Below, piece after piece: positions 3,195-24,487 of a stretch of DNA of 29,317 nt. The notes under the pieces were generated by a model, which worked only from the letters and a program-made list of their open reading frames with translations, had not been told where the DNA came from and did not search any database. Origin of the DNA: an uncultured bacterium (GTDB lineage Bacteria; Planctomycetota; PLA2). Location of the stretch: contig CBDURV010000001.1 in the NCBI GenBank assembly GCA_965369495.1, positions 1 to 29,317 of the forward strand. The letters are read 5' to 3'. Positions within the stretch are counted from its first letter, which is position 1, and each line of letters opens with the position of its first letter. The position numbers and the translations under genes were made by a program.

Positions 3195-3232
3195 GGTACC
3201 CAATGCGCGAGCACGATAGCAGGTCGCGGATT

Positions 3233-3416
3233 CGATACGGTACCGGGTGTTTTCCTGCGAAACTCGCGAGTCAACTTGGCAGACGAGTTTCGGAGACTTA
3301 CTCCCGGTACCGGATCTCACGAGGCCGTCACGGCCCGCGACCGGGCGAGCATCGACCGGTGTCCTCTTCCGAGGGCGCGTACTCGGAAGAATCGTGCCTG
3401 GCGCAGTAGTTCCAGG
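3233..3416 (+). repeat. Full bipartite element R1: left flank CGATA + module A (3238-3312, 75 bp palindrome) + linker type alpha + module B (3349-3416)
   Basis: A = CGGTACCGGG-tgttttcctg-CGAAACTCG-17 nt-CGAGTTTCG-gagacttact-CCCGGTACCG. B = gcatcgaccggtgtcctcTTCCGAGggcgcgtaCTCGGAAgaatcgtgcctggcgcagtagttccagg. Near-identical to copies at 13323 and 18510. Confidence 0.95.
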
Positions 3417-11569: not shown

Positions 11570-12430
11570 ATGCGCTCTCTCACGCTTGCTCTCCTCGCAT
11601 TGTTGACCGTGCCTGGTGTGGTGTTTGCCCACGGGGGAGGATTCCGCGGGCCAAACGGCGGGGTGCCGCCGGGGTTGCGACCGCGGGGGTTGTTTTGCTT
11701 CTGTGCGCTGGTGAAGTGCAGCCATTGCGCGAACGACGCATTGCGCACGGGGAAGAACTACGTGCGCGGGGACGTGCGTACGACCGTGCTGCGTCATTGG
11801 GGGGACATCGAGCTCGTGCGGGTGACGCTGACGTTCCGGACGGAACAGGACGTGGGCGCCGTCGAGGGCTTCGCAAGGCTGCGTCTCGCGCCGGTGTTTG
11901 CCGCGGTCGGCGGCCAGGTGCAAGCGCATGGGACGGCGTCGCCGTTGATCGCCCGCCTGCGCGATTCCGAACCCGCGCGGCGCACCTATCTCTGGATCCG
12001 GCAGACAAAGTTGATCGATCCGCTGCTGGTCATGCGTCGGGAGCCCGGCGTCGTGGATGTGCGCGCGTTTCCCGTGACTAGCGAGGCGCCCTTGCGGGTC
12101 GCCATCGAGGGCTATCGGCTGATCCCTCGCAAGGGCGTGCCCGGCATGCGCATCTACCGCACTGGGGAGCGCTACCTGACGGTCGCGGCCGATGGGAAGC
12201 ACGAGTTCCTCTCCCGCGACGATTGCCGCCGACGCCACGGCACCGCAGCGGCGATCATCGTGCCCTGCGTGCCCGCGCTTGAAACCGCGGCGACCGACCG
12301 CGGCAATGCGGCGGCCGGCGCCAAACGCGTGCTCGCGGCCTATCCGAACGGCTCGAAGCCCGGTCCCATGGCCGCCGCAGACGCGTCGCCGCCCCCTCCG
12401 CCGCCGCCCAGCACCACTCCGCAGCCCTAA
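11570..12430 (+). CDS. Secreted protein with a VIT (vault protein inter-alpha-trypsin)-like domain
   Basis: GGGAG then ATG at 11570. Signal peptide MRSLTLALLALLTVPGVVFA, then HGGGFRGPNGGVPPG and a Cys cluster. VIT-like pattern V.LTF...EG..RL...ARRTY..I.....DPLL......V.AFPV......V.IEGY. Pro-rich tail. Confidence 0.6.
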   Translation: MRSLTLALLALLTVPGVVFAHGGGFRGPNGGVPPGLRPRGLFCFCALVKCSHCANDALRTGKNYVRGDVRTTVLRHWGDIELVRVTLTFRTEQDVGAVEGFARLRLAPVFAAVGGQVQAHGTASPLIARLRDSEPARRTYLWIRQTKLIDPLLVMRREPGVVDVRAFPVTSEAPLRVAIEGYRLIPRKGVPGMRIYRTGERYLTVAADGKHEFLSRDDCRRRHGTAAAIIVPCVPALETAATDRGNAAAGAKRVLAAYPNGSKPGPMAAADASPPPPPPPSTTPQP

Positions 12431-13322: not shown

Positions 13323-13500
13323 CGGTACCGGGTGTTTTCCTGCGAAACTCGCGAGTCAATTTGGCAGACGAGTCTCGGAGAATTACTCCCGGTACCGAAT
13401 CTCGGGTCGATCCGGACCGGGATTAGATGCACGGCATCGACCGGTGTCCTCTTCCGAGGGCGCTTACTCGGAAAAATTGTGTCTGACGCCGTATTCCCGT
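13323..13500 (+). repeat. Full bipartite element R3: module A (13323-13397) + linker type beta + module B (13434-~13497)
   Basis: Module A differs from R1 at 3 of 75 positions. Linker aatctcgggtcgatccggaccgggattagatgcacg. Begins 9 nt after the PEP-CTERM stop. Confidence 0.95.
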
Positions 13501-16168: not shown

Positions 16169-17104
16169 GTGAACCCGGGCGCCGCACCGCAACCGACCCT
16201 CGTTTTCCCGTCCACCAACCCCGATCTCGACGGGGTTGCGTGTGCGTGGGCCTATGCCGAGTTGCTGCGCAGCTCGGGCGAGGACGCGCTGGCGTGGGTG
16301 GCCGGCGAGCCCGACGGGGAGGCGCGCTGGGTGCTGCAGGAACGCGACGTGGAGATCTCGCGCGACCCGGAGGCGATCGGTACGGCGGGTCGGTTCGTCT
16401 ACGTCGACGGGAGCGAGTTGCCCGGGCTGCCGGAAGGCATCGATCCCATTGCAGTCGTCGAGGTCATCGACCACCGTCGCCAGCATCGCGCGGCGACGGA
16501 CTTTCCGAACGCACGCCTTCAGATCGAAGCCGTGGGCGCAGCCGCGACCCTGGTGCTCGAGCGCTTCCGGGAGACGTGGGCCGACCCATCCCCCGAATCG
16601 GCGATCCTTCTCTACGCGGCGATTCAATCGAACACGCAACGCCTCAATGGATCGGTCACCACGGAGCGCGATCGGCGGGCCGCCGCCTACCTCGAGACCG
16701 TCTGCGAACCGCCGCGCGACCTGATTGCCCGCCAGATGGCGGCGCGCCGGTCCGAGATCCTCGCGGACCTGCGCGCTGCCGTGAAGGCGCAGAGCAAGAC
16801 GTTCACGGCTGCCACGGGCGCGTTCGTCGTCGCGCAACTCGAGCTGCCGGGTGTTGAGGTGCTGCTACGCGAGCGCGACTTCAAGGAGACTCTCGCGGCC
16901 AGCCTGGATGGCCCCCGCGCCATGGTCAACATTGTCGACTCCGCGCTCGGCAGGTCGTTCCTGTTGGTACCGAATGCGGAGTTCCGGGACGAAGTCGCCG
17001 CGGGAGTGGGGCGCGAGTTCAACGGGCAGATCGCGACGATGCAGTCCGCGATGCTTCGAAAACAGATCGTGCACGCTCTCGGCGCCCGGGCCGGCACCGA
17101 GTGA
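16169..17104 (+). CDS. DHH-family phosphoesterase, family II (Mn-dependent) inorganic pyrophosphatase-like, with variant metal ligands
   Basis: NPDLDGVACAWAYAELL, VYVD, EVIDHRR, IEAVGAAATLV, LLYAAIQSNT and TTERD align with PpaC NPDTDTICSAIAYADL, ILVD, EVIDHHR, EPVGCTATIL, LMLSAIISDS and TCTDQD. Confidence 0.8.
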   Translation: MNPGAAPQPTLVFPSTNPDLDGVACAWAYAELLRSSGEDALAWVAGEPDGEARWVLQERDVEISRDPEAIGTAGRFVYVDGSELPGLPEGIDPIAVVEVIDHRRQHRAATDFPNARLQIEAVGAAATLVLERFRETWADPSPESAILLYAAIQSNTQRLNGSVTTERDRRAAAYLETVCEPPRDLIARQMAARRSEILADLRAAVKAQSKTFTAATGAFVVAQLELPGVEVLLRERDFKETLAASLDGPRAMVNIVDSALGRSFLLVPNAEFRDEVAAGVGREFNGQIATMQSAMLRKQIVHALGARAGTE

Positions 17105-17150: not shown

Positions 17151-17162
17151 CGATACGGTACC
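17151..17162 (+). repeat. Left end of element R4 (CGATA-CGGTACC), split by the IS
   Basis: Joining 17151-17162 to 18512 onward rebuilds CGATACGGTACCGGGTGTTTTCC exactly as at 3233, and a 75-bp module A. Confidence 0.9.
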
Positions 17163-17195
17163 CCTTTAGAAAAGTGCAAGGGCCGATCTCATCCT

Positions 17196-17410
17196 GACAG
17201 TTCTGGCATTGGATTTCGTTCCTGTGGGCCCGTCCGCGTCGGTCTTGTCCAGTCGCCTTGTCGAGCTGGGCGGAGCCCGCTCAGGAAAGTAGTCGGCGGG
17301 GCCTTCATCCGAGGTGACGGCCTCTGTGAGGCCAGTAGCGCATCGAAGTGCCTCGCCGTTGAGTTCCGACTTGGTCGGGTAGTCTGTTTTGATGTCGAAG
17401 AGCGTGCGCG
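17196..17410 (-). ncRNA. Candidate seek/bridge RNA region (3' non-coding end of the IS1111-like element)
   Basis: Position downstream of the transposase and inside the subterminal IR matches where IS1111-type elements encode guide RNA (established knowledge). Local hairpins include CCGAC-CAA-GTCGG and GGCCTC-ACA-GAGGCC. Guide segments were not identified by eye. Confidence 0.5.
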
Positions 17411-18438
17411 CTACGCCTTGCCGAGGCAGCGCTCCATGCTGAATACTTCGCCGCGCGACAGCACGATGTAGATGCCGACCAGCAGGCGCCGCGCGAGAGT
17501 CGTCCGCACGTTGTTGGCATGCATCCGGCGCCGGTAGGGCTCGGCCCACTTGCGCACCAGCGGATGCGTGCTCATCAGCCGCACCGCGGTCTGGTTGAGG
17601 ATCCAGCGCAGCTCCTTGTTGCCCTTCTTGGTGATCCGGCCGTGGTGGCTCGTATCTGCCGAGTTGGCGACCCGTGGCACAAGCCCACTGTAGGACGCCG
17701 CCGCGCGCGCGTTGCGAAAGCGGCTCACGTCACCGAGCTCGGCCACCAGCGTCAACGCGGTCTGCGCGCCGACCTGCGGGATCATCGCCTGCAGCGCGGC
17801 AACCTTGCTCGCTTTGGCGCGTTCGACGATCCGCTTGTGCAGTCGTCGGATCGACTCCTCCATCTGCTCCAGCGCAAACACCAGCGCGTCCATGCAGCAG
17901 TCGAGATCCAGCACCGCTAGGCAGATCGCCCGCAGGCGCGCTAGCTGGCGGGGTGCGTAGAGCAGCCCTCTGGGCGGGGCGACCTTGAACGCGTCCAGCA
18001 GCGCGCGGATGCGATTGCTCAGGTGCGTGCGCTGCCCGACGAGGTCGTGCCGGATCCGCTCGAGCTGACGCAGTGCATACACCTCGTCGGACGGATAGTG
18101 GTCTTCGCAAAGCGATCGAGATCACCGAGACGCAGGCGCCGCGCGATCTCGTGCGCGTCGCGACGATCGTTCTTCTTGCCGCAGGACCGCAGATTGAGCC
18201 GCGCCGCATCGACGACAACGATGTCGTAGCCGCGTTCTTGGCAGGCGTTGACAAACCAGCGGTTCAAGCCGACCGCCTCCACGGCGAATCGAGCGGGGCT
18301 CCACTGGCTCAGATGGGCGACGAGGGCGAGCCCCAGATCGAGCGTCTCGACCCGATGGCGCTCCTCCGCGTCGAGCACACGAATCTGAATCACACTCTTG
18401 TGCAAATCGACTACAACGAAATACTGGGTATGGGGCAT
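17411..18438 (-). pseudogene. IS110-family transposase with a one-base deletion near 18100
   Basis: N-part: VDLHK, AVEAVG, KKNDRRDA (DEDD RuvC-like). C-part: IPQVGAQTA..LVAELGD..RF.NAR...SYSGLVP....SAD....GRITKKGN..LR. The frames join at AAG ACC AC TAT CCG TCC GAC GAG; adding one base gives a ~342-aa protein. AAGGA RBS upstream of the ATG at 18438. Confidence 0.9.
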
Positions 18439-18509
18439 GGTCGGTTGTTCCTTTCCGTCTTGTGGGAAGACTTCAGAAAGGATGCGATCGGCCTACCCCG
18501 CTATACCTT

Positions 18510-18681
18510 CCGGGTGTTTTCCTGCGAAACTCGCGAGTCAATTTGGCAGACGAGTTTCGGAGAATTACTCCCGGTACCGAATCTCGGGTCGATCCGGACC
18601 GGGATTGGATGCACGGCATCGACCGGCGTCCTCTTCCGAGGGCGCTTACTCGGAAAAACTGTGTCTGACGCCGTACTTCCT
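18510..18681 (+). repeat. Remainder of full element R4: module A (to 18579) + linker type beta + module B (18616-~18681)
   Basis: ccgggtgttttcctgcgaaactcgcgagtcaatttggcagacgagtttcggagaattactcccggtaccgaatctcgggtcgatccggaccgggattggatgcacggcatcgaccggcgtcctcttccgagggcgcttactcggaaaaactgtgtctgacgccgtacttcc, nearly identical to R3. Confidence 0.95.
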
Positions 18682-18734: not shown

Positions 18735-21416
18735 ATGGCCGCCGATGCCCCCGCCCTCATCCTGCGCGACGGAACGACCGTGCGTGTGCGGCTGTGTACG
18801 CCCGAAGACGTTCCGGCGATGCGGGAGTTTCTGGCCCGCGTCGAACAGCGCGCCGGTAGCGACAGCACCCTGCGCGAGCGAGCCATGGGGCACGTTACCG
18901 TGGAGGAGCTTTGCGACTGCGAGCGGCCGGATGACCGATTGACAGTGCTTGCGCTGCGCACGATCGACGGCGTGGAGCGCGTCGTCGGATCGGCGAGCTA
19001 TGTCGCCACTGACGACGGCGCAGCCGAGATCGCCCTGGGCGTCGATGCGGACTTCCGCGGGCTTGGTCTCGCGACGGCGCTGGTCGAGCGGATCGCACCG
19101 GCCGCCGCACACCATGGCCATCGACGGCTGATCGTGCGCGTGGCAGAGGGCAACGAGCGCCTGCTCGAGTTGCTGCGGCGCAGCGGTTACCCCCTCGCGG
19201 AGGACCAGGCGCGTGGCCTCGTCGTCGTGGACATCTCTGCCATGCCGCAGGGCGAGGCCCGCGAACGCGGAGAACTGCGCGATCGCCTGGCAGCCGCCGC
19301 GTCGATGCGCCCCTTCTTCCATCCGCGCGCCGTCGCCGTAGTGGGAGCGTCCCGCAACGAGGACAGCCTCGGCTTCCGCACGCTGCACGCCCTCGTGCTG
19401 AATCGCTTCCACGGTCCCGTCTATGCGGTGAACCCGAAGGCGGCCAGCGTCGGCGCGATCCCCTGCTACCCCTCTGTAAGCGAATTGCCGGGGCCCGTCG
19501 ATCTCGCCATCGTCCTCGTCCCCAAGCAGCATGTCGATGCCGTCGTGGACGACTGCGCGGCGGCGGGCGTCCGCGCGCTGGTCGTCATCACCGCAGGCTA
19601 CGCGGAGACGGGCGAAGAGGGACGGGCGCGCCAGGATCGCCTGCGGGATCGCGTGCGCGGCCATGGCATGCGCATGGTCGGGCCGAACTGCATGGGGCTC
19701 ATCAACGCCGACCCCGAGGTGCGCTTGGCAGCCACGTTCGCTCCCGCGTTCCCGCCGGCCGGCAACGTCGCCATGAGTTCGCAGAGCGGTGCGCTCGGCC
19801 TGGCCATTCTCGCGACCGCGGAGGAGATCGGCATGGGCCTCTCCACGTTCGTGAGCGTGGGCAACAAGGCTGACGTCTCGGCGAACGATCTGTTGCTCTA
19901 CTGGGAAGGCGACGAGCACACGGACGTGATCCTGCTCTACGTCGAGTCCTTCGGCAACCCGCGCTGCTTCGCGCGCATCGCTCGGCGCATCGGCCGCGAG
20001 AAACCCATCGTCGCAGTGAAGAGCGGCCGCACGCGCGCAGGCAAGCGGGCCGCGGGGAGTCACACGGCCGCCCTCGCCGAGAGCGACGTCGCGGTCGATG
20101 CGCTCTTCAGCCAGACGGGCGTGCTGCGGGCGGAGACGCTGGAGGAAATGTTCGACATCGCGTTGGTGCTGTCGAGCCAGCCTCTGCCGCGAGGCAACCG
20201 GGTGGCCATCCTCACCAACGCCGGCGGGCCCGGCATCCTGGCCGCGGACGCCCTTGAGTCCCGCGGCATGCAGATCGCGGAACTGAGCGCGGACGTGCGG
20301 GCGCGGCTCGCGGAGTTCCTCCCGGAGGAGGCCAGCACCACGAACCCCGTCGACATGATCGCCGGGGCCGGTGCGCAGGAGTACGCGCGCGCGGTGCAGG
20401 TGCTGCTCGAGGCAGACGAAGTGGATGCGCTGATTCTGATTCACGCGCCGATCGAGGCTTCGCATCTCGTCTCCGTGGAAGATGCCCTGCACGATGTGCT
20501 CGCGAAGATCGACGCAGACGATCACAAGCCGGTGCTGACTTGTTTGATGGGGGCCGGGGGAAGGGGGCCGGCACGGCGCCTGCGTCGCGGGGTGCCGTCC
20601 TACGCGTTTCCGGAGGCGGCCGCGCGTGTGCTTGGGCGAGTCGCCGAATACGCGGCGTGGCGTCGTGAACCCCTGGGCGTCGAGCCTGAGTTCGAGGATT
20701 TCAACGCGGATGCCGCGCGCGGCGTGTGCGATCGCGTGCTGGCCGAGCGCGGAGACGGCTGGTTGCTGCCCGACGAGGTGGCGGCACTCGGTGCGGCCTG
20801 CGGACTGCCGCTCGTGGAGGGGCGTGTCGCGACGTCGGCCGACGAGGCGGCCGACGTCGCGGAGTCGCTCGGGATGCCGGTCGTCGCGAAGCTCGTCAGC
20901 CGCACCCTGGTTCACAAGACCGACCTTGGCGGCGTGCAGCTGAATCTGCGTGACGCCGCGGCAGTGCGGAACGCGTTCGACACCATCCGCGGAGCGCTCG
21001 AGACGGCGGGCCACGAAGACGCGTTCGAGGGCGTGCTGGTGCAACCCATGCTCTCGGGCGGCGTCGAGATCATGGCCGGCATGACCGAGGATCCGGTCTT
21101 CGGGCCCTTGATTGCCTTCGGTCTCGGCGGAATTCACGTCGAGGTGTTGGGGGACGTGGTGTTCCGCGTGGCGCCCCTGACCGACAAGGACGCACACGAG
21201 ATGGTGCAGGGCATTCGCGGTCGCAAGCTCTTGGAGGGCTACCGGGGCCATCCGCCGGCGGACGAGCCGGCGCTCGAGGAAATGTTGCTGCGCCTGTCGC
21301 GACTGGTGGACGAGGTCGACGAGATCGACGACCTCGACATCAATCCGGCGTTCGCCCTGCCGCCCGGCGAAGGTTGCCGGATCGTGGATCTACGCGTGCA
21401 CGTGCGGCGCGGTTGA
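18735..21416 (+). CDS. GNAT acetyltransferase (N-terminal) fused to an NDP-forming acyl-CoA synthetase-like region (Pat-type protein lysine acetyltransferase, GNAT-first architecture)
   Basis: LRDGTTVRVR...ED, AEIALGVDADFRGLGLATAL (GNAT). FFHPRAVAVVGASR, GPVYAVNP, GPNCMG, SQSGALG, VSVGNKADVS, YVESFGNP, KSGRT, SHTAALA, TNAGGPG, NPVD. ATP-grasp HKTDLGGV, VLVQPM, DPVFGP, DINP. Confidence 0.9.
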   Translation: MAADAPALILRDGTTVRVRLCTPEDVPAMREFLARVEQRAGSDSTLRERAMGHVTVEELCDCERPDDRLTVLALRTIDGVERVVGSASYVATDDGAAEIALGVDADFRGLGLATALVERIAPAAAHHGHRRLIVRVAEGNERLLELLRRSGYPLAEDQARGLVVVDISAMPQGEARERGELRDRLAAAASMRPFFHPRAVAVVGASRNEDSLGFRTLHALVLNRFHGPVYAVNPKAASVGAIPCYPSVSELPGPVDLAIVLVPKQHVDAVVDDCAAAGVRALVVITAGYAETGEEGRARQDRLRDRVRGHGMRMVGPNCMGLINADPEVRLAATFAPAFPPAGNVAMSSQSGALGLAILATAEEIGMGLSTFVSVGNKADVSANDLLLYWEGDEHTDVILLYVESFGNPRCFARIARRIGREKPIVAVKSGRTRAGKRAAGSHTAALAESDVAVDALFSQTGVLRAETLEEMFDIALVLSSQPLPRGNRVAILTNAGGPGILAADALESRGMQIAELSADVRARLAEFLPEEASTTNPVDMIAGAGAQEYARAVQVLLEADEVDALILIHAPIEASHLVSVEDALHDVLAKIDADDHKPVLTCLMGAGGRGPARRLRRGVPSYAFPEAAARVLGRVAEYAAWRREPLGVEPEFEDFNADAARGVCDRVLAERGDGWLLPDEVAALGAACGLPLVEGRVATSADEAADVAESLGMPVVAKLVSRTLVHKTDLGGVQLNLRDAAAVRNAFDTIRGALETAGHEDAFEGVLVQPMLSGGVEIMAGMTEDPVFGPLIAFGLGGIHVEVLGDVVFRVAPLTDKDAHEMVQGIRGRKLLEGYRGHPPADEPALEEMLLRLSRLVDEVDEIDDLDINPAFALPPGEGCRIVDLRVHVRRG

Positions 21417-24416: not shown

Positions 24417-24487
24417 CGGTACCGGGTGTTTTCCAAACTCGCGGGTCAAATTGGCAGACGAGTTTCGGAGAATTACTCCCGGTACCG
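24417..24487 (+). repeat. Module A copy R6 (71 bp; 4-nt deletion of TGCG), preceded by an inverted left-end motif CGGTACCGTATCG (24404-24416)
   Basis: cggtaccgggtgttttcc----aaactcgcgggtcaaattggcagacgagtttcggagaattactcccggtaccg; ends 4 nt from the stop of the next gene. Confidence 0.92.

What the first reader, a model, noticed from the sequence alone, without database searches (positions are those of the whole stretch)
17151..18579. IS1111-like element inserted exactly into the core of the repeat; its circle junction would rebuild a sigma70-like promoter
Seen: removing 17163-18511 restores CGATACGGTA-CC-GGGTGTTTTCC and a 75-bp module A. On the minus strand the circle junction reads TTGCAC-ttttctaaagg-GG-aagg-TATAGC, a -35/-10 pair with a 17-nt spacer pointing at the transposase (the -10 lacks the final T). 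Knowledge: IS110/IS1111 elements excise as circles, form junction promoters, are RNA-guided, and several target multicopy palindromes (IS621 and ISPa11 at REPs, the IS1111-attC group at attC sites). Inference: this IS specialises on the new repeat, independent evidence that the repeat is a conserved multicopy target; insertion would disable that site.
Basis: partly seen in the sequence, partly recalled or inferred. Interest (0 to 1): 0.8.

Follow-up and report, generated by a model that had tools for sequence, protein, structure and literature searches.

The report
Broken RNA-guided IS in a repeat
A 1.35-kb IS1111-type (IS110-family) insertion sequence sits exactly inside one copy of a species-specific palindromic repeat in a Planctomycetota genome; it carries a guide RNA whose loop matches both flanks, but its transposase gene is broken, so it is a well-documented ordinary case, not a new kind of element.

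Summary
Removing window 17163-18511 restores an uninterrupted repeat copy. A 2-nt core (CC on +, GG on the transposase strand) lies at both junctions. Joining the two IS ends gives TTGCAC-17 nt-TATAGC.

The element belongs to the IS110 family and has IS1111-type architecture. The transposase lies on the minus strand, followed by a 248-nt 3' non-coding region holding a conserved structured RNA (17238-17372).

Across 34 relatives that RNA fold is supported by compensatory changes. The two strands of its large internal loop track the flanks: the 5' strand is complementary to core plus right flank, and the 3' strand equals the 5 nt left of the core. Both exceed every permutation. Guide and target co-vary between relatives.

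The junction promoter is a clade feature: TTGAC sits 11 nt from the right end in 14 of 20 distinct junctions, and NATAG sits 4 nt into the left end in 19 of 20. This copy's -35 is degenerate.

It is the only copy in the assembly. The repeat motif has about 30 hits in this genome and near-background counts in three relatives.

Verdict: a new member of a known kind, of moderate-to-low interest.

The parts
17151..17162 (+). Left edge of the interrupted repeat (CGATACGGTA plus core CC at 17161-17162). On the transposase strand this is core GG plus right target TACCGTATCG.
   Evidence: The same 10-12 nt flank the right end of relatives L031 and L032.
17163..18509 (-). IS body, 1347 bp (1349 with one core copy). 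Right end at 17163, left end at 18509.
   Evidence: Empty-site reconstruction. 91.6% nt identity to L031 over 1312 nt. 75% to G008:C35.
18510..18511 (+). Second copy of the 2-nt core (CC; GG on the minus strand).
18512..18583 (+). Remainder of the interrupted repeat module A (GGGTGTTTTCC...CCCGGTACCG). On the transposase strand its first bases are the left target ...AAAACACCC.
18100..18438 (-). Transposase N-terminal part (DEDD/RuvC-like). It carries a 15-nt in-frame deletion near 18363/18364, between two GCGGAG repeats, that removes residues GEIVA including an invariant Gly. The reading frame is lost between 18100 and 18099 by a 1-nt deletion.
   Evidence: In one search, contigs of relatives run on with an extra base at 18099.
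17411..18099 (-). Transposase C-terminal part in the other frame (coiled coil plus the PF02371 domain, motif GLVPRVANSA). Stop codon TAG at 17413-17411.
   Evidence: Transposase_20, E 1.3e-21; full-length homologues of 348 aa.
17238..17372 (-). Conserved structured RNA in the 3' non-coding region (candidate seekRNA): two stem-loops enclosed by an outer helix.
   Evidence: Alignment A2 of 34 distinct relatives. 89.8% of cells paired against 33-43% when slid. 144 compensatory cells against 48 in shuffles, 0/500. MFE -53 kcal/mol, z = -2.5.
17334..17343 (-). 5' strand of the internal loop, AUGCGCUACU: guide complementary to the top strand of core plus right target (GGTACCGTAT). 7 Watson-Crick pairs, 2 G-U pairs, 1 C-C mismatch.
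17312..17316 (-). 3' strand of the internal loop, CACCU: same sense as the 5 nt left of the core (CACCC), so it pairs with the bottom strand.
17174..17179 (-). -35-like hexamer TTGCAC, 11 nt from the right end. Relatives have TTGACN here.
18500..18505 (-). -10-like hexamer TATAGC, 4 nt inside the left end.
18479..18493 (-). Inner inverted repeat, left arm GGCCGATCGCATCCT, 16 nt from the left end.
   Evidence: 14/15 complementary to 17181-17195. Also present in relatives L032 and L037.
17181..17195 (-). Inner inverted repeat, right arm AGGATGAGATCGGCC, 18 nt from the right end.
18494..18503 (-). Position of the clade's canonical subterminal inverted repeat (TAG plus 7 nt). Here TAGCGGGGTA against TAGAAAAGTG at 17167-17176, only 5/10 matching.
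   Evidence: The repeat is intact in relatives, for example TAGATGAAGT at both ends of L039-type elements.

Best explanation
This is an insertion sequence of the IS110 family with IS1111-type architecture, 1347 bp plus a 2-nt core, in a Planctomycetota metagenome-assembled genome. It integrated by RNA-guided, site-specific recombination into one copy of a species-specific palindromic repeat.

Shown: the 3' non-coding region encodes a conserved two-stem-loop RNA. The 5' strand of its internal loop (AUGCGCUACU) is complementary to core plus right flank (GGTACCGTAT). The 3' strand (CACCU) matches the 5 nt left of the core (CACCC). The same relationship holds in relatives that have different flanks.

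Inferred, by analogy with ISEc11, ISPa11 and ISKpn4: the DEDD transposase binds this RNA. The element excises as a circle in which the abutted ends create a -35/17 nt/-10 promoter that drives the transposase gene and the RNA. The circle is then inserted at the GG core of a matching site.

This copy is a decayed one. It has a 1-nt frameshift and a 15-nt deletion in the transposase gene, a degenerate -35 and a degenerate subterminal repeat. It is probably immobile unless complemented in trans.
For: - Domains and family model.
- Full-length homologues are 348 aa.
- Exact empty-site restoration.
- RNA structure with compensatory changes.
- Guide-flank matches at a fixed register exceed all 5000 permutations. 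The 5' guide scores 5.67 against 3.80 +/- 0.26 (n = 24 distinct guides). The 3' guide scores 4.02 against 2.50 +/- 0.18 (n = 21). Both.
- Perfect 8-10 nt matches in L049, L053, L059, L061, L067, L075, L064 and L097.
- Covariation inside the closest subgroup. CUACU pairs with GGTAC in the window, L031 and L032. CUGC[U/C] pairs with GGCAC in G001/L005, L036, L116 and L037. CGACU pairs with GGTCC in L119, whose left flank TTCCC equals its 3' guide UUCCC..
- The order (top-strand complement 5' of the bottom-strand match) and the 3' position of the non-coding region are those reported for IS1111-type seekRNAs: PMC11187229.
- Junction promoter conservation.
- Lesions in the transposase gene.
- Unoccupied matching repeat sites.
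Against: - No RNA, circle junction or transposition was observed.
- No sequencing run held more than a quarter of the stretch's sampled words, and all four runs laid were kept only as assembled contigs.
- All members of the closest subgroup keep one C-C mismatch in the middle of the 5' guide.
- Some subgroups fit only with a 1-2 nt register shift, because their ends are not fixed by empty sites.
- Relative L032 has a left flank (GAGCT) that matches its 3' guide in only 3/5 positions.
- No consistent donor-end guide of 6 nt or more was found in the RNA.
- The frameshift could be an assembly error.
- The transposase was not placed on a tree with IS1111 and IS110 reference proteins.
Confidence: 0.85

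Rival explanations
1. The element is intact and active. On this view the frameshift is an assembly or sequencing error, or a programmed frameshift, and the element still transposes autonomously.
For: The genome is a fragmented short-read MAG of 726 contigs. The guide RNA and the left end are well preserved. Intact relatives exist in marine sediment samples.
Against: - There are two independent lesions. One is a 1-nt deletion outside any homopolymer. The other is a 15-nt deletion between GCGGAG direct repeats that removes a Gly invariant in 24 homologues.
- All 348-aa homologues read through in one frame, so a programmed shift has no support.
- The -35 and the subterminal repeat are also degenerate.
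- There is one copy in the assembly, while 8 or more good target sites are empty.
Confidence: 0.1
2. The conserved TTGAC (right end) and TATAG (left end) are recombination-site or transposase-binding determinants. The promoter-like look of the junction is then incidental.
For: Both hexamers overlap the subterminal inverted repeat of the clade. No expression data exist. Promoter consensus in Planctomycetota is poorly known (my own knowledge).
Against: - The conserved TTG lies outside the inverted repeat and has no mirror (CAA) at the left end.
- The left terminal extension is 2 nt longer than the right, which is what produces TATAG.
- The spacing with a 2-nt core is 17 nt in 14/20 distinct junctions and 16-18 nt in 17/20.
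- Active junction promoters are documented for family members (PMC11187229).
Confidence: 0.2
3. The position in the repeat reflects chance, or homologous exchange between repeat copies, not RNA-guided choice. The flank-loop similarity would then be coincidental.
For: Only one copy can be inspected in this genome. The target is partly palindromic, so short matches arise easily.
Against: Permutation tests over 21-24 independent guide types. Compensated changes of guide and flank among close relatives. The same architecture has been shown experimentally for IS1111-type elements (PMC11187229).
Confidence: 0.03

Closest known systems
ISPa11 (IS1111 group; targets REP sequences of Pseudomonas aeruginosa; its seekRNA was characterised in Siddiquee et al. 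2024, PMC11187229)
   Same: DEDD transposase of about 340-350 aa. Non-coding region 3' of the gene encoding a guide RNA, with the top-strand complement 5' of the bottom-strand match. Orientation-specific insertion into a multicopy extragenic palindrome.
   Different: Host phylum is Planctomycetota. The target repeat is unrelated. Transposase identity to enterobacterial IS1111-group members (IS4321/IS5075) is only about 26%. Terminal extensions beyond the subterminal repeat are 6 and 4 nt (plus the 2-nt core), not the usual 7 and 3. The motif is GL-P----SA, not SG/TG. I did not compare ISPa11 itself.
ISEc11 / ISKpn4 / ISPst6 (IS1111 group, experimentally shown seekRNA; an active junction promoter is cited for ISEc11)
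   Same: Inferred circle intermediate with abutted ends that form a promoter. A short guide RNA with two target-matching segments in one loop. The donor flanks are recognised by the same guides.
   Different: The targets differ (a short chromosomal site, and attC sites). Nothing has been tested experimentally here. This copy is defective.
IS621 / ISCro4 bridge recombinases (IS110 group, solved structures 8WT6 and 9T56)
   Same: The same superfamily and the same general principle: an RNA loop pairs with both strands around a 2-nt core.
   Different: Only a weak sequence match, confined to the C-terminal domain (E 4e-9 and 1e-7). In IS621 the RNA lies 5' of the gene, the guide order is reversed, and a separate donor-binding loop exists. 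No donor guide could be found here.
ISPpu9 of Pseudomonas putida (IS110 family, inserted in REP sequences, small RNA gene downstream of the transposase gene; PMC12288879, abstract seen)
   Same: Targets REP sequences and has an RNA gene downstream of the transposase gene. Solo RNA copies occur elsewhere in that genome. Compare the solo remnant on contig C155 of this genome.
   Different: I did not compare the sequences. The host and the repeat differ.

Membership tests
IS110 family (DEDD transposase insertion sequences) | Transposase with an N-terminal DEDD/RuvC-like domain (PF01548) and a C-terminal PF02371 domain | tested here: met
   PF02371 at E 1.3e-21. PF01548 gives weak hits on both fragments because the gene is split; the intact relative P0001 (94% identical) scores 200 bits on NF033542 (cutoff 140). 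The window fragments score 48 and 124 bits.
IS110 family (DEDD transposase insertion sequences) | Site-specific insertion with no, or a very short, target duplication and no terminal inverted repeats | tested here: met
   The empty site is restored exactly with a 2-nt core. The termini AAGG.../...AAAGG are not inverted repeats.
IS1111 group | The longer non-coding region lies downstream of the transposase gene | tested here: met
   248 nt 3' (17163-17410) against 71 nt 5'. The same holds in all relatives inspected.
IS1111 group | Subterminal inverted repeats of about 11-13 bp with terminal extensions of 7 (or 6) and 3 bp | tested here: inconclusive
   The clade has a subterminal repeat of about 10 bp (TAG plus 7 nt) with extensions of 6 and 4 nt, not counting the core. 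In the window copy it matches at only 5/10 positions. A second 15-bp repeat (14/15) lies 16 and 18 nt from the ends.
IS1111 group | Transposase of 330-350 aa with the C-terminal motif GL-P----S(t)G | tested here: inconclusive
   The length criterion is met: homologues are 347-350 aa. The motif reads GLVPRVANSA, so Ser-Ala replaces Ser/Thr-Gly. The source paper mentions TA as an occasional variant.
IS1111 group | Guide RNA from the 3' non-coding region, with the top-strand complement 5' of the bottom-strand match | tested here: met
   at the sequence and covariation level. The RNA itself was not observed.
IS1111 group | Transposase clusters with IS1111 relatives across its full length in a phylogeny | not tested
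   No reference set of named IS1111- and IS110-group proteins was available as usable sequences. The only data are about 26% identity to IS4321/IS5075 over residues 7-291 and weak C-terminal matches to IS621 and ISCro4.
IS1111 group | Circular intermediate with abutted ends that create an active promoter | not testable with these tools
   At the sequence level, -35/17 nt/-10 is conserved in 14/20 distinct junctions. No joint between the two IS ends was listed in the four runs laid as contigs, which drop rare forms.
REP-targeting insertion sequences | The target is a multicopy extragenic palindromic repeat of the host | tested here: met
   The motif GGAAAACACCCGGTACCG, allowing up to 3 mismatches, occurs 30 times in the genome against 1 for the reversed control. 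Blast copies of the modules.

The most novel reading that the evidence does not exclude
The IS and the repeat may form a co-evolving pair. The repeat (module A) is bounded by two inverted CGGTACCG cores, and both score as candidate sites for the element's guides (right-edge sites such as 18573 score 3.5/7.5; left-edge sites score 4.5/8). A seekRNA-loaded recombinase from such elements could then also catalyse core-to-core exchange between repeat copies (deletions, inversions, solo cores). That would make it a driver of the repeat's spread and rearrangement and not only a parasite of it. The species-specific abundance of the repeat and the locally tuned guides of relatives are compatible with this but do not show it.
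Probability: 0.08. Interest if true: 0.6.

Novelty: new member of a known kind. Interest (0 to 1): 0.3.

Why it matters
The finding annotates an unannotated stretch correctly. It explains why one repeat copy is split.

It also gives a natural data set for a recently discovered mechanism. About 24 distinct guide types, from an uncultured, largely marine-sediment clade of IS1111-like elements, change together with their insertion sites. This suggests a layout of 5 nt on the left plus roughly 8-10 nt on the right, including the core.

Such natural reprogramming series are useful for people engineering seekRNA or bridge recombinases. Here the series also extends the family to Planctomycetota.

The finding does not change how the family is understood. 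The copy in the window is a dead one.

Tried and rejected
- Rfam scan of the region gave nothing relevant.
- I looked for further copies in the window's own genome. There are none, only a solo right end plus partial RNA remnant on contig C155.
- An unbiased search for donor-end guides (exact 6-mers shared between the RNA and the abutted ends) found no consistent position. I therefore do not claim a donor-binding loop.
- Public runs. No run holds more than 26% of the words, and all are contigs. No circle junction or empty-site allele could be looked for properly.
- A genome-contig scan with the 94% relative found only one close locus, G008.
- One contig look-up (P0012) returned no DNA.
- L117 has an atypical or truncated right end and was not used.
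- A tree against named IS1111 and IS110 references was not built, for lack of usable reference sequences.
- I first took the 15-bp inner repeat as the subterminal repeat. Comparison with relatives showed that the clade's canonical one lies nearer the ends and is degenerate in this copy.

Full report
OBSERVATION

On the + strand the window reads CGATACGGTA-CC (17151-17162). A 1347-bp insert follows (17163-18509), then a second CC (18510-18511) and GGGTGTTTTCC.

I removed 17163-18511 and compared the result with the whole assembly. It aligns without gaps across the junction to uninterrupted repeat copies: 13323-13497 (97%), 3232-3413 (84%), 24417-24487 (92%), and two copies on contig C63. The boundaries are therefore fixed to within the duplicated 2-nt core.

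The repeat is real and multicopy. The motif GGAAAACACCCGGTACCG, with up to 3 mismatches, occurs 30 times in this 4.36-Mb, 78%-complete assembly, against 1 for the reversed control. In a genome of the same genus it occurs 4 times against 0. In two genomes of the same family it is at background level.

WHAT THE INSERT IS

The minus strand carries a transposase gene in two frames. ORF 18438..18019 gives a weak PF01548 hit. ORF 18082..17411 hits PF02371 at E 1.3e-21.

Homologues in public data are uniformly 347-350 aa. The closest, P0001 (94% identical over the C-terminal part), scores 200 bits on NCBIfam NF033542, 'IS110 family RNA-guided transposase', whose cutoff is 140.

Compared with P0001's contig (L031) and with G008:C35 (L004, the same place as L032), the window copy lacks one base between 18100 and 18099 (aagacc[t]actat). 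It also lacks 15 nt between two GCGGAG repeats near 18364. That removes GEIVA, including a Gly that is invariant in 24 homologues. Contigs of relatives from marine sediment runs break off their alignment exactly at 18099 and continue with the extra base.

tblastn finds no other copy in the assembly. This copy is very probably non-autonomous.

The genome is a Planctomycetota MAG, judged from the titles of the related records.

ARCHITECTURE

- The 5' untranslated part is 71 nt and the 3' non-coding region is 248 nt.
- Across 80 metagenomic loci and several genome loci encoding relatives (45-94% aa identity), the left end is GG|A[A/C]GG[T/C]ATAG. The right end is TTGACN followed by 11 nt, then |GG.
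- The clade has a subterminal inverted repeat beginning with TAG, 6 nt from the left end and 4 nt from the right end. An example is TAGATGAAGT in L039-type elements.
- In the window copy that repeat has decayed to 5/10 matches. A second 15-bp repeat (14/15) lies further in.

These are the features listed for the IS1111 group in Siddiquee et al. 2024 (PMC11187229). The extension lengths and the motif GL-P----SA differ slightly from the canonical ones.

THE GUIDE RNA

I aligned a 135-nt core of the non-coding region (window 17238-17372, minus strand) with 33 other distinct sequences (alignment A2).

RNAalifold found the main stems, and 9 of its 21 pairs showed compensatory change.

I then tested a manually completed structure: an outer helix; stem-loop 1 with a large internal loop and a distal hairpin; and stem-loop 2. 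Results:
- 89.8% of cells are paired, against 33-43% when the 3' partners are slid.
- 144 cells carry double changes, against 48 +/- 5 in shuffles (0/500).
- 18 pairs change on both sides.

The window sequence alone folds to -53 kcal/mol, z = -2.5.

The two strands of the internal loop are hypervariable between subgroups, and they follow the flanks.
- The 5' strand is AUGCGCUACU (17343-17334). It is the reverse complement of core plus right flank, GGTACCGTAT: 7 Watson-Crick pairs, 2 G-U pairs and 1 C-C mismatch.
- The 3' strand is CACCU (17316-17312). It equals the 5 nt left of the core, CACCC, with U opposite G.

At a fixed register, over distinct guide types, the mean match is 5.67 of 10 against 3.80 +/- 0.26 for permuted flanks (maximum 4.83, n = 24). 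For the 3' strand it is 4.02 of 5 against 2.50 +/- 0.18 (maximum 3.26, n = 21).

Many elements show perfect runs of 8-10 nt (L049, L053, L059, L061, L064, L067, L075, L097). Several show perfect 5-mers on the left (L040, L047, L048, L053, L075, L077).

Within the window's own subgroup the changes are compensated:
- CUACU with GGTAC: window, L031, L032.
- CUGC[U/C] with GGCAC: G001/L005 (same genus), L036, L116, L037/L038.
- CGACU with GGTCC: L119, whose left flank TTCCC equals its 3' strand UUCCC.

The order, with the top-strand complement first, is the one reported for IS1111-type seekRNAs. I found no consistent donor-end guide. That agrees with the published picture, in which the same guides read the flanks of the donor copy.

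TARGET CHOICE IN THIS GENOME

I scanned the assembly with the two guides. Sites as good as or better than the occupied one are at C1:3244, C41:4549, C61:9982, C87:8099, C182:7495 and C693:16. The slightly weaker C1:13329 and C1:24423 follow. All carry the same GAAAACACCC|GGTACCG repeat edge.

The guide pairs best with the variant GGTACCGCAT. The IS is therefore matched to this repeat family, yet occupies only one of at least nine good sites. That fits a dead or nearly dead element.

Relative L032, in a genome without the repeat, keeps the right half-site GGTACCGTAC but has an unrelated left flank. Contigs from other samples that begin at 17151-17153 with different upstream sequence show that the ATACGGTACC flank recurs next to the right end at several loci.

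JUNCTION PROMOTER

With one GG core the abutted ends read TTGCAC-17 nt-TATAGC in the window.

In 20 distinct junctions, 14 have TTGAC at exactly this position, 3 more at 16 or 18 nt, and 19 have NATAG at the -10 position.

The TTG lies outside the inverted repeat and has no mirror at the left end. The left extension is 2 nt longer than the right one. This asymmetry argues for a promoter and not merely a recombination-site constraint.

Junction promoters are already documented for the family. The window's -35 (3/6) is weaker than in relatives, which is another sign of decay.

COMPARISON AND VERDICT

The mechanism, the architecture, the habit of targeting repeats and the junction promoter are all known for IS1111 and IS110 elements such as ISPa11, ISEc11, ISKpn4, IS621 and ISPpu9.

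What is new is the host phylum, the particular repeat, a large uncharacterised clade with clear natural guide-target covariation, and small deviations in the end structure.

I rate this a new member of a known kind, with interest about 0.3.

My covariation analysis confirms it independently.

Noticed in passing
G000 contig C155, about 985-1110 (locus L002 about 985-1110): A solo remnant of a related element: a right end (...CTGAAGG|GG|TACCGTCATGC on the element's strand) plus part of the second stem-loop of the guide RNA, next to ACGGTACC, with no transposase gene.
   Followed up: partly
L037 and L038 (metagenome contigs Ga0255054_10048908 and Ga0255052_10020691): Identical IS copies with the same right flank for more than 100 nt but different left flanks (GTAGCCGG|G against GTGCCC|GG). 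This could be a rearrangement at the IS, two insertions into a longer repeat, or an assembly chimera.
   Followed up: no
L062, L067, L072, L075, L077, L082, L091, L111 (right flanks): A subgroup of relatives from different metagenomes is always followed by TCAGCTGCAGCGCCTTGTTAGGCGG-like sequence and preceded by GCGCGGTGGCC-like sequence. Their target is itself a widespread conserved multicopy sequence of unknown nature.
   Followed up: no
L039, L043, L045, L048, L050, L056-L058: Another subgroup sits between CTAGCCC|GG and [GG/GA/GC][AT/CC]TATTCATGA. The right-hand core copy is not always GG, which suggests core mismatches between donor and target are tolerated, or that my ends are off by 1-2 nt.
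   Followed up: no
G000 genome-wide; window 3238, 13323, 24417: The repeat's central hexamer varies between copies: GGTACC about 11, GGAACC about 6, GGTTCC about 6, GGTGCC 2, GGGACC 1. Only the GGTACC subtype fits the IS guide.
   Followed up: partly
L006 (G003:C118, about 11954-12096 of the contig): A guide-RNA region plus right end (…CCCTAAAGG|GG|CACCTTCACGG) was found by DNA similarity without a matching transposase segment. I did not check whether a diverged gene lies upstream.
   Followed up: no
window 16169-17104 and 18735-21416: The interrupted repeat lies in the intergenic region between a 311-aa ORF and an 893-aa ORF, both on the + strand. The IS transposase gene points away from the downstream gene. 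I did not annotate either ORF.
   Followed up: no
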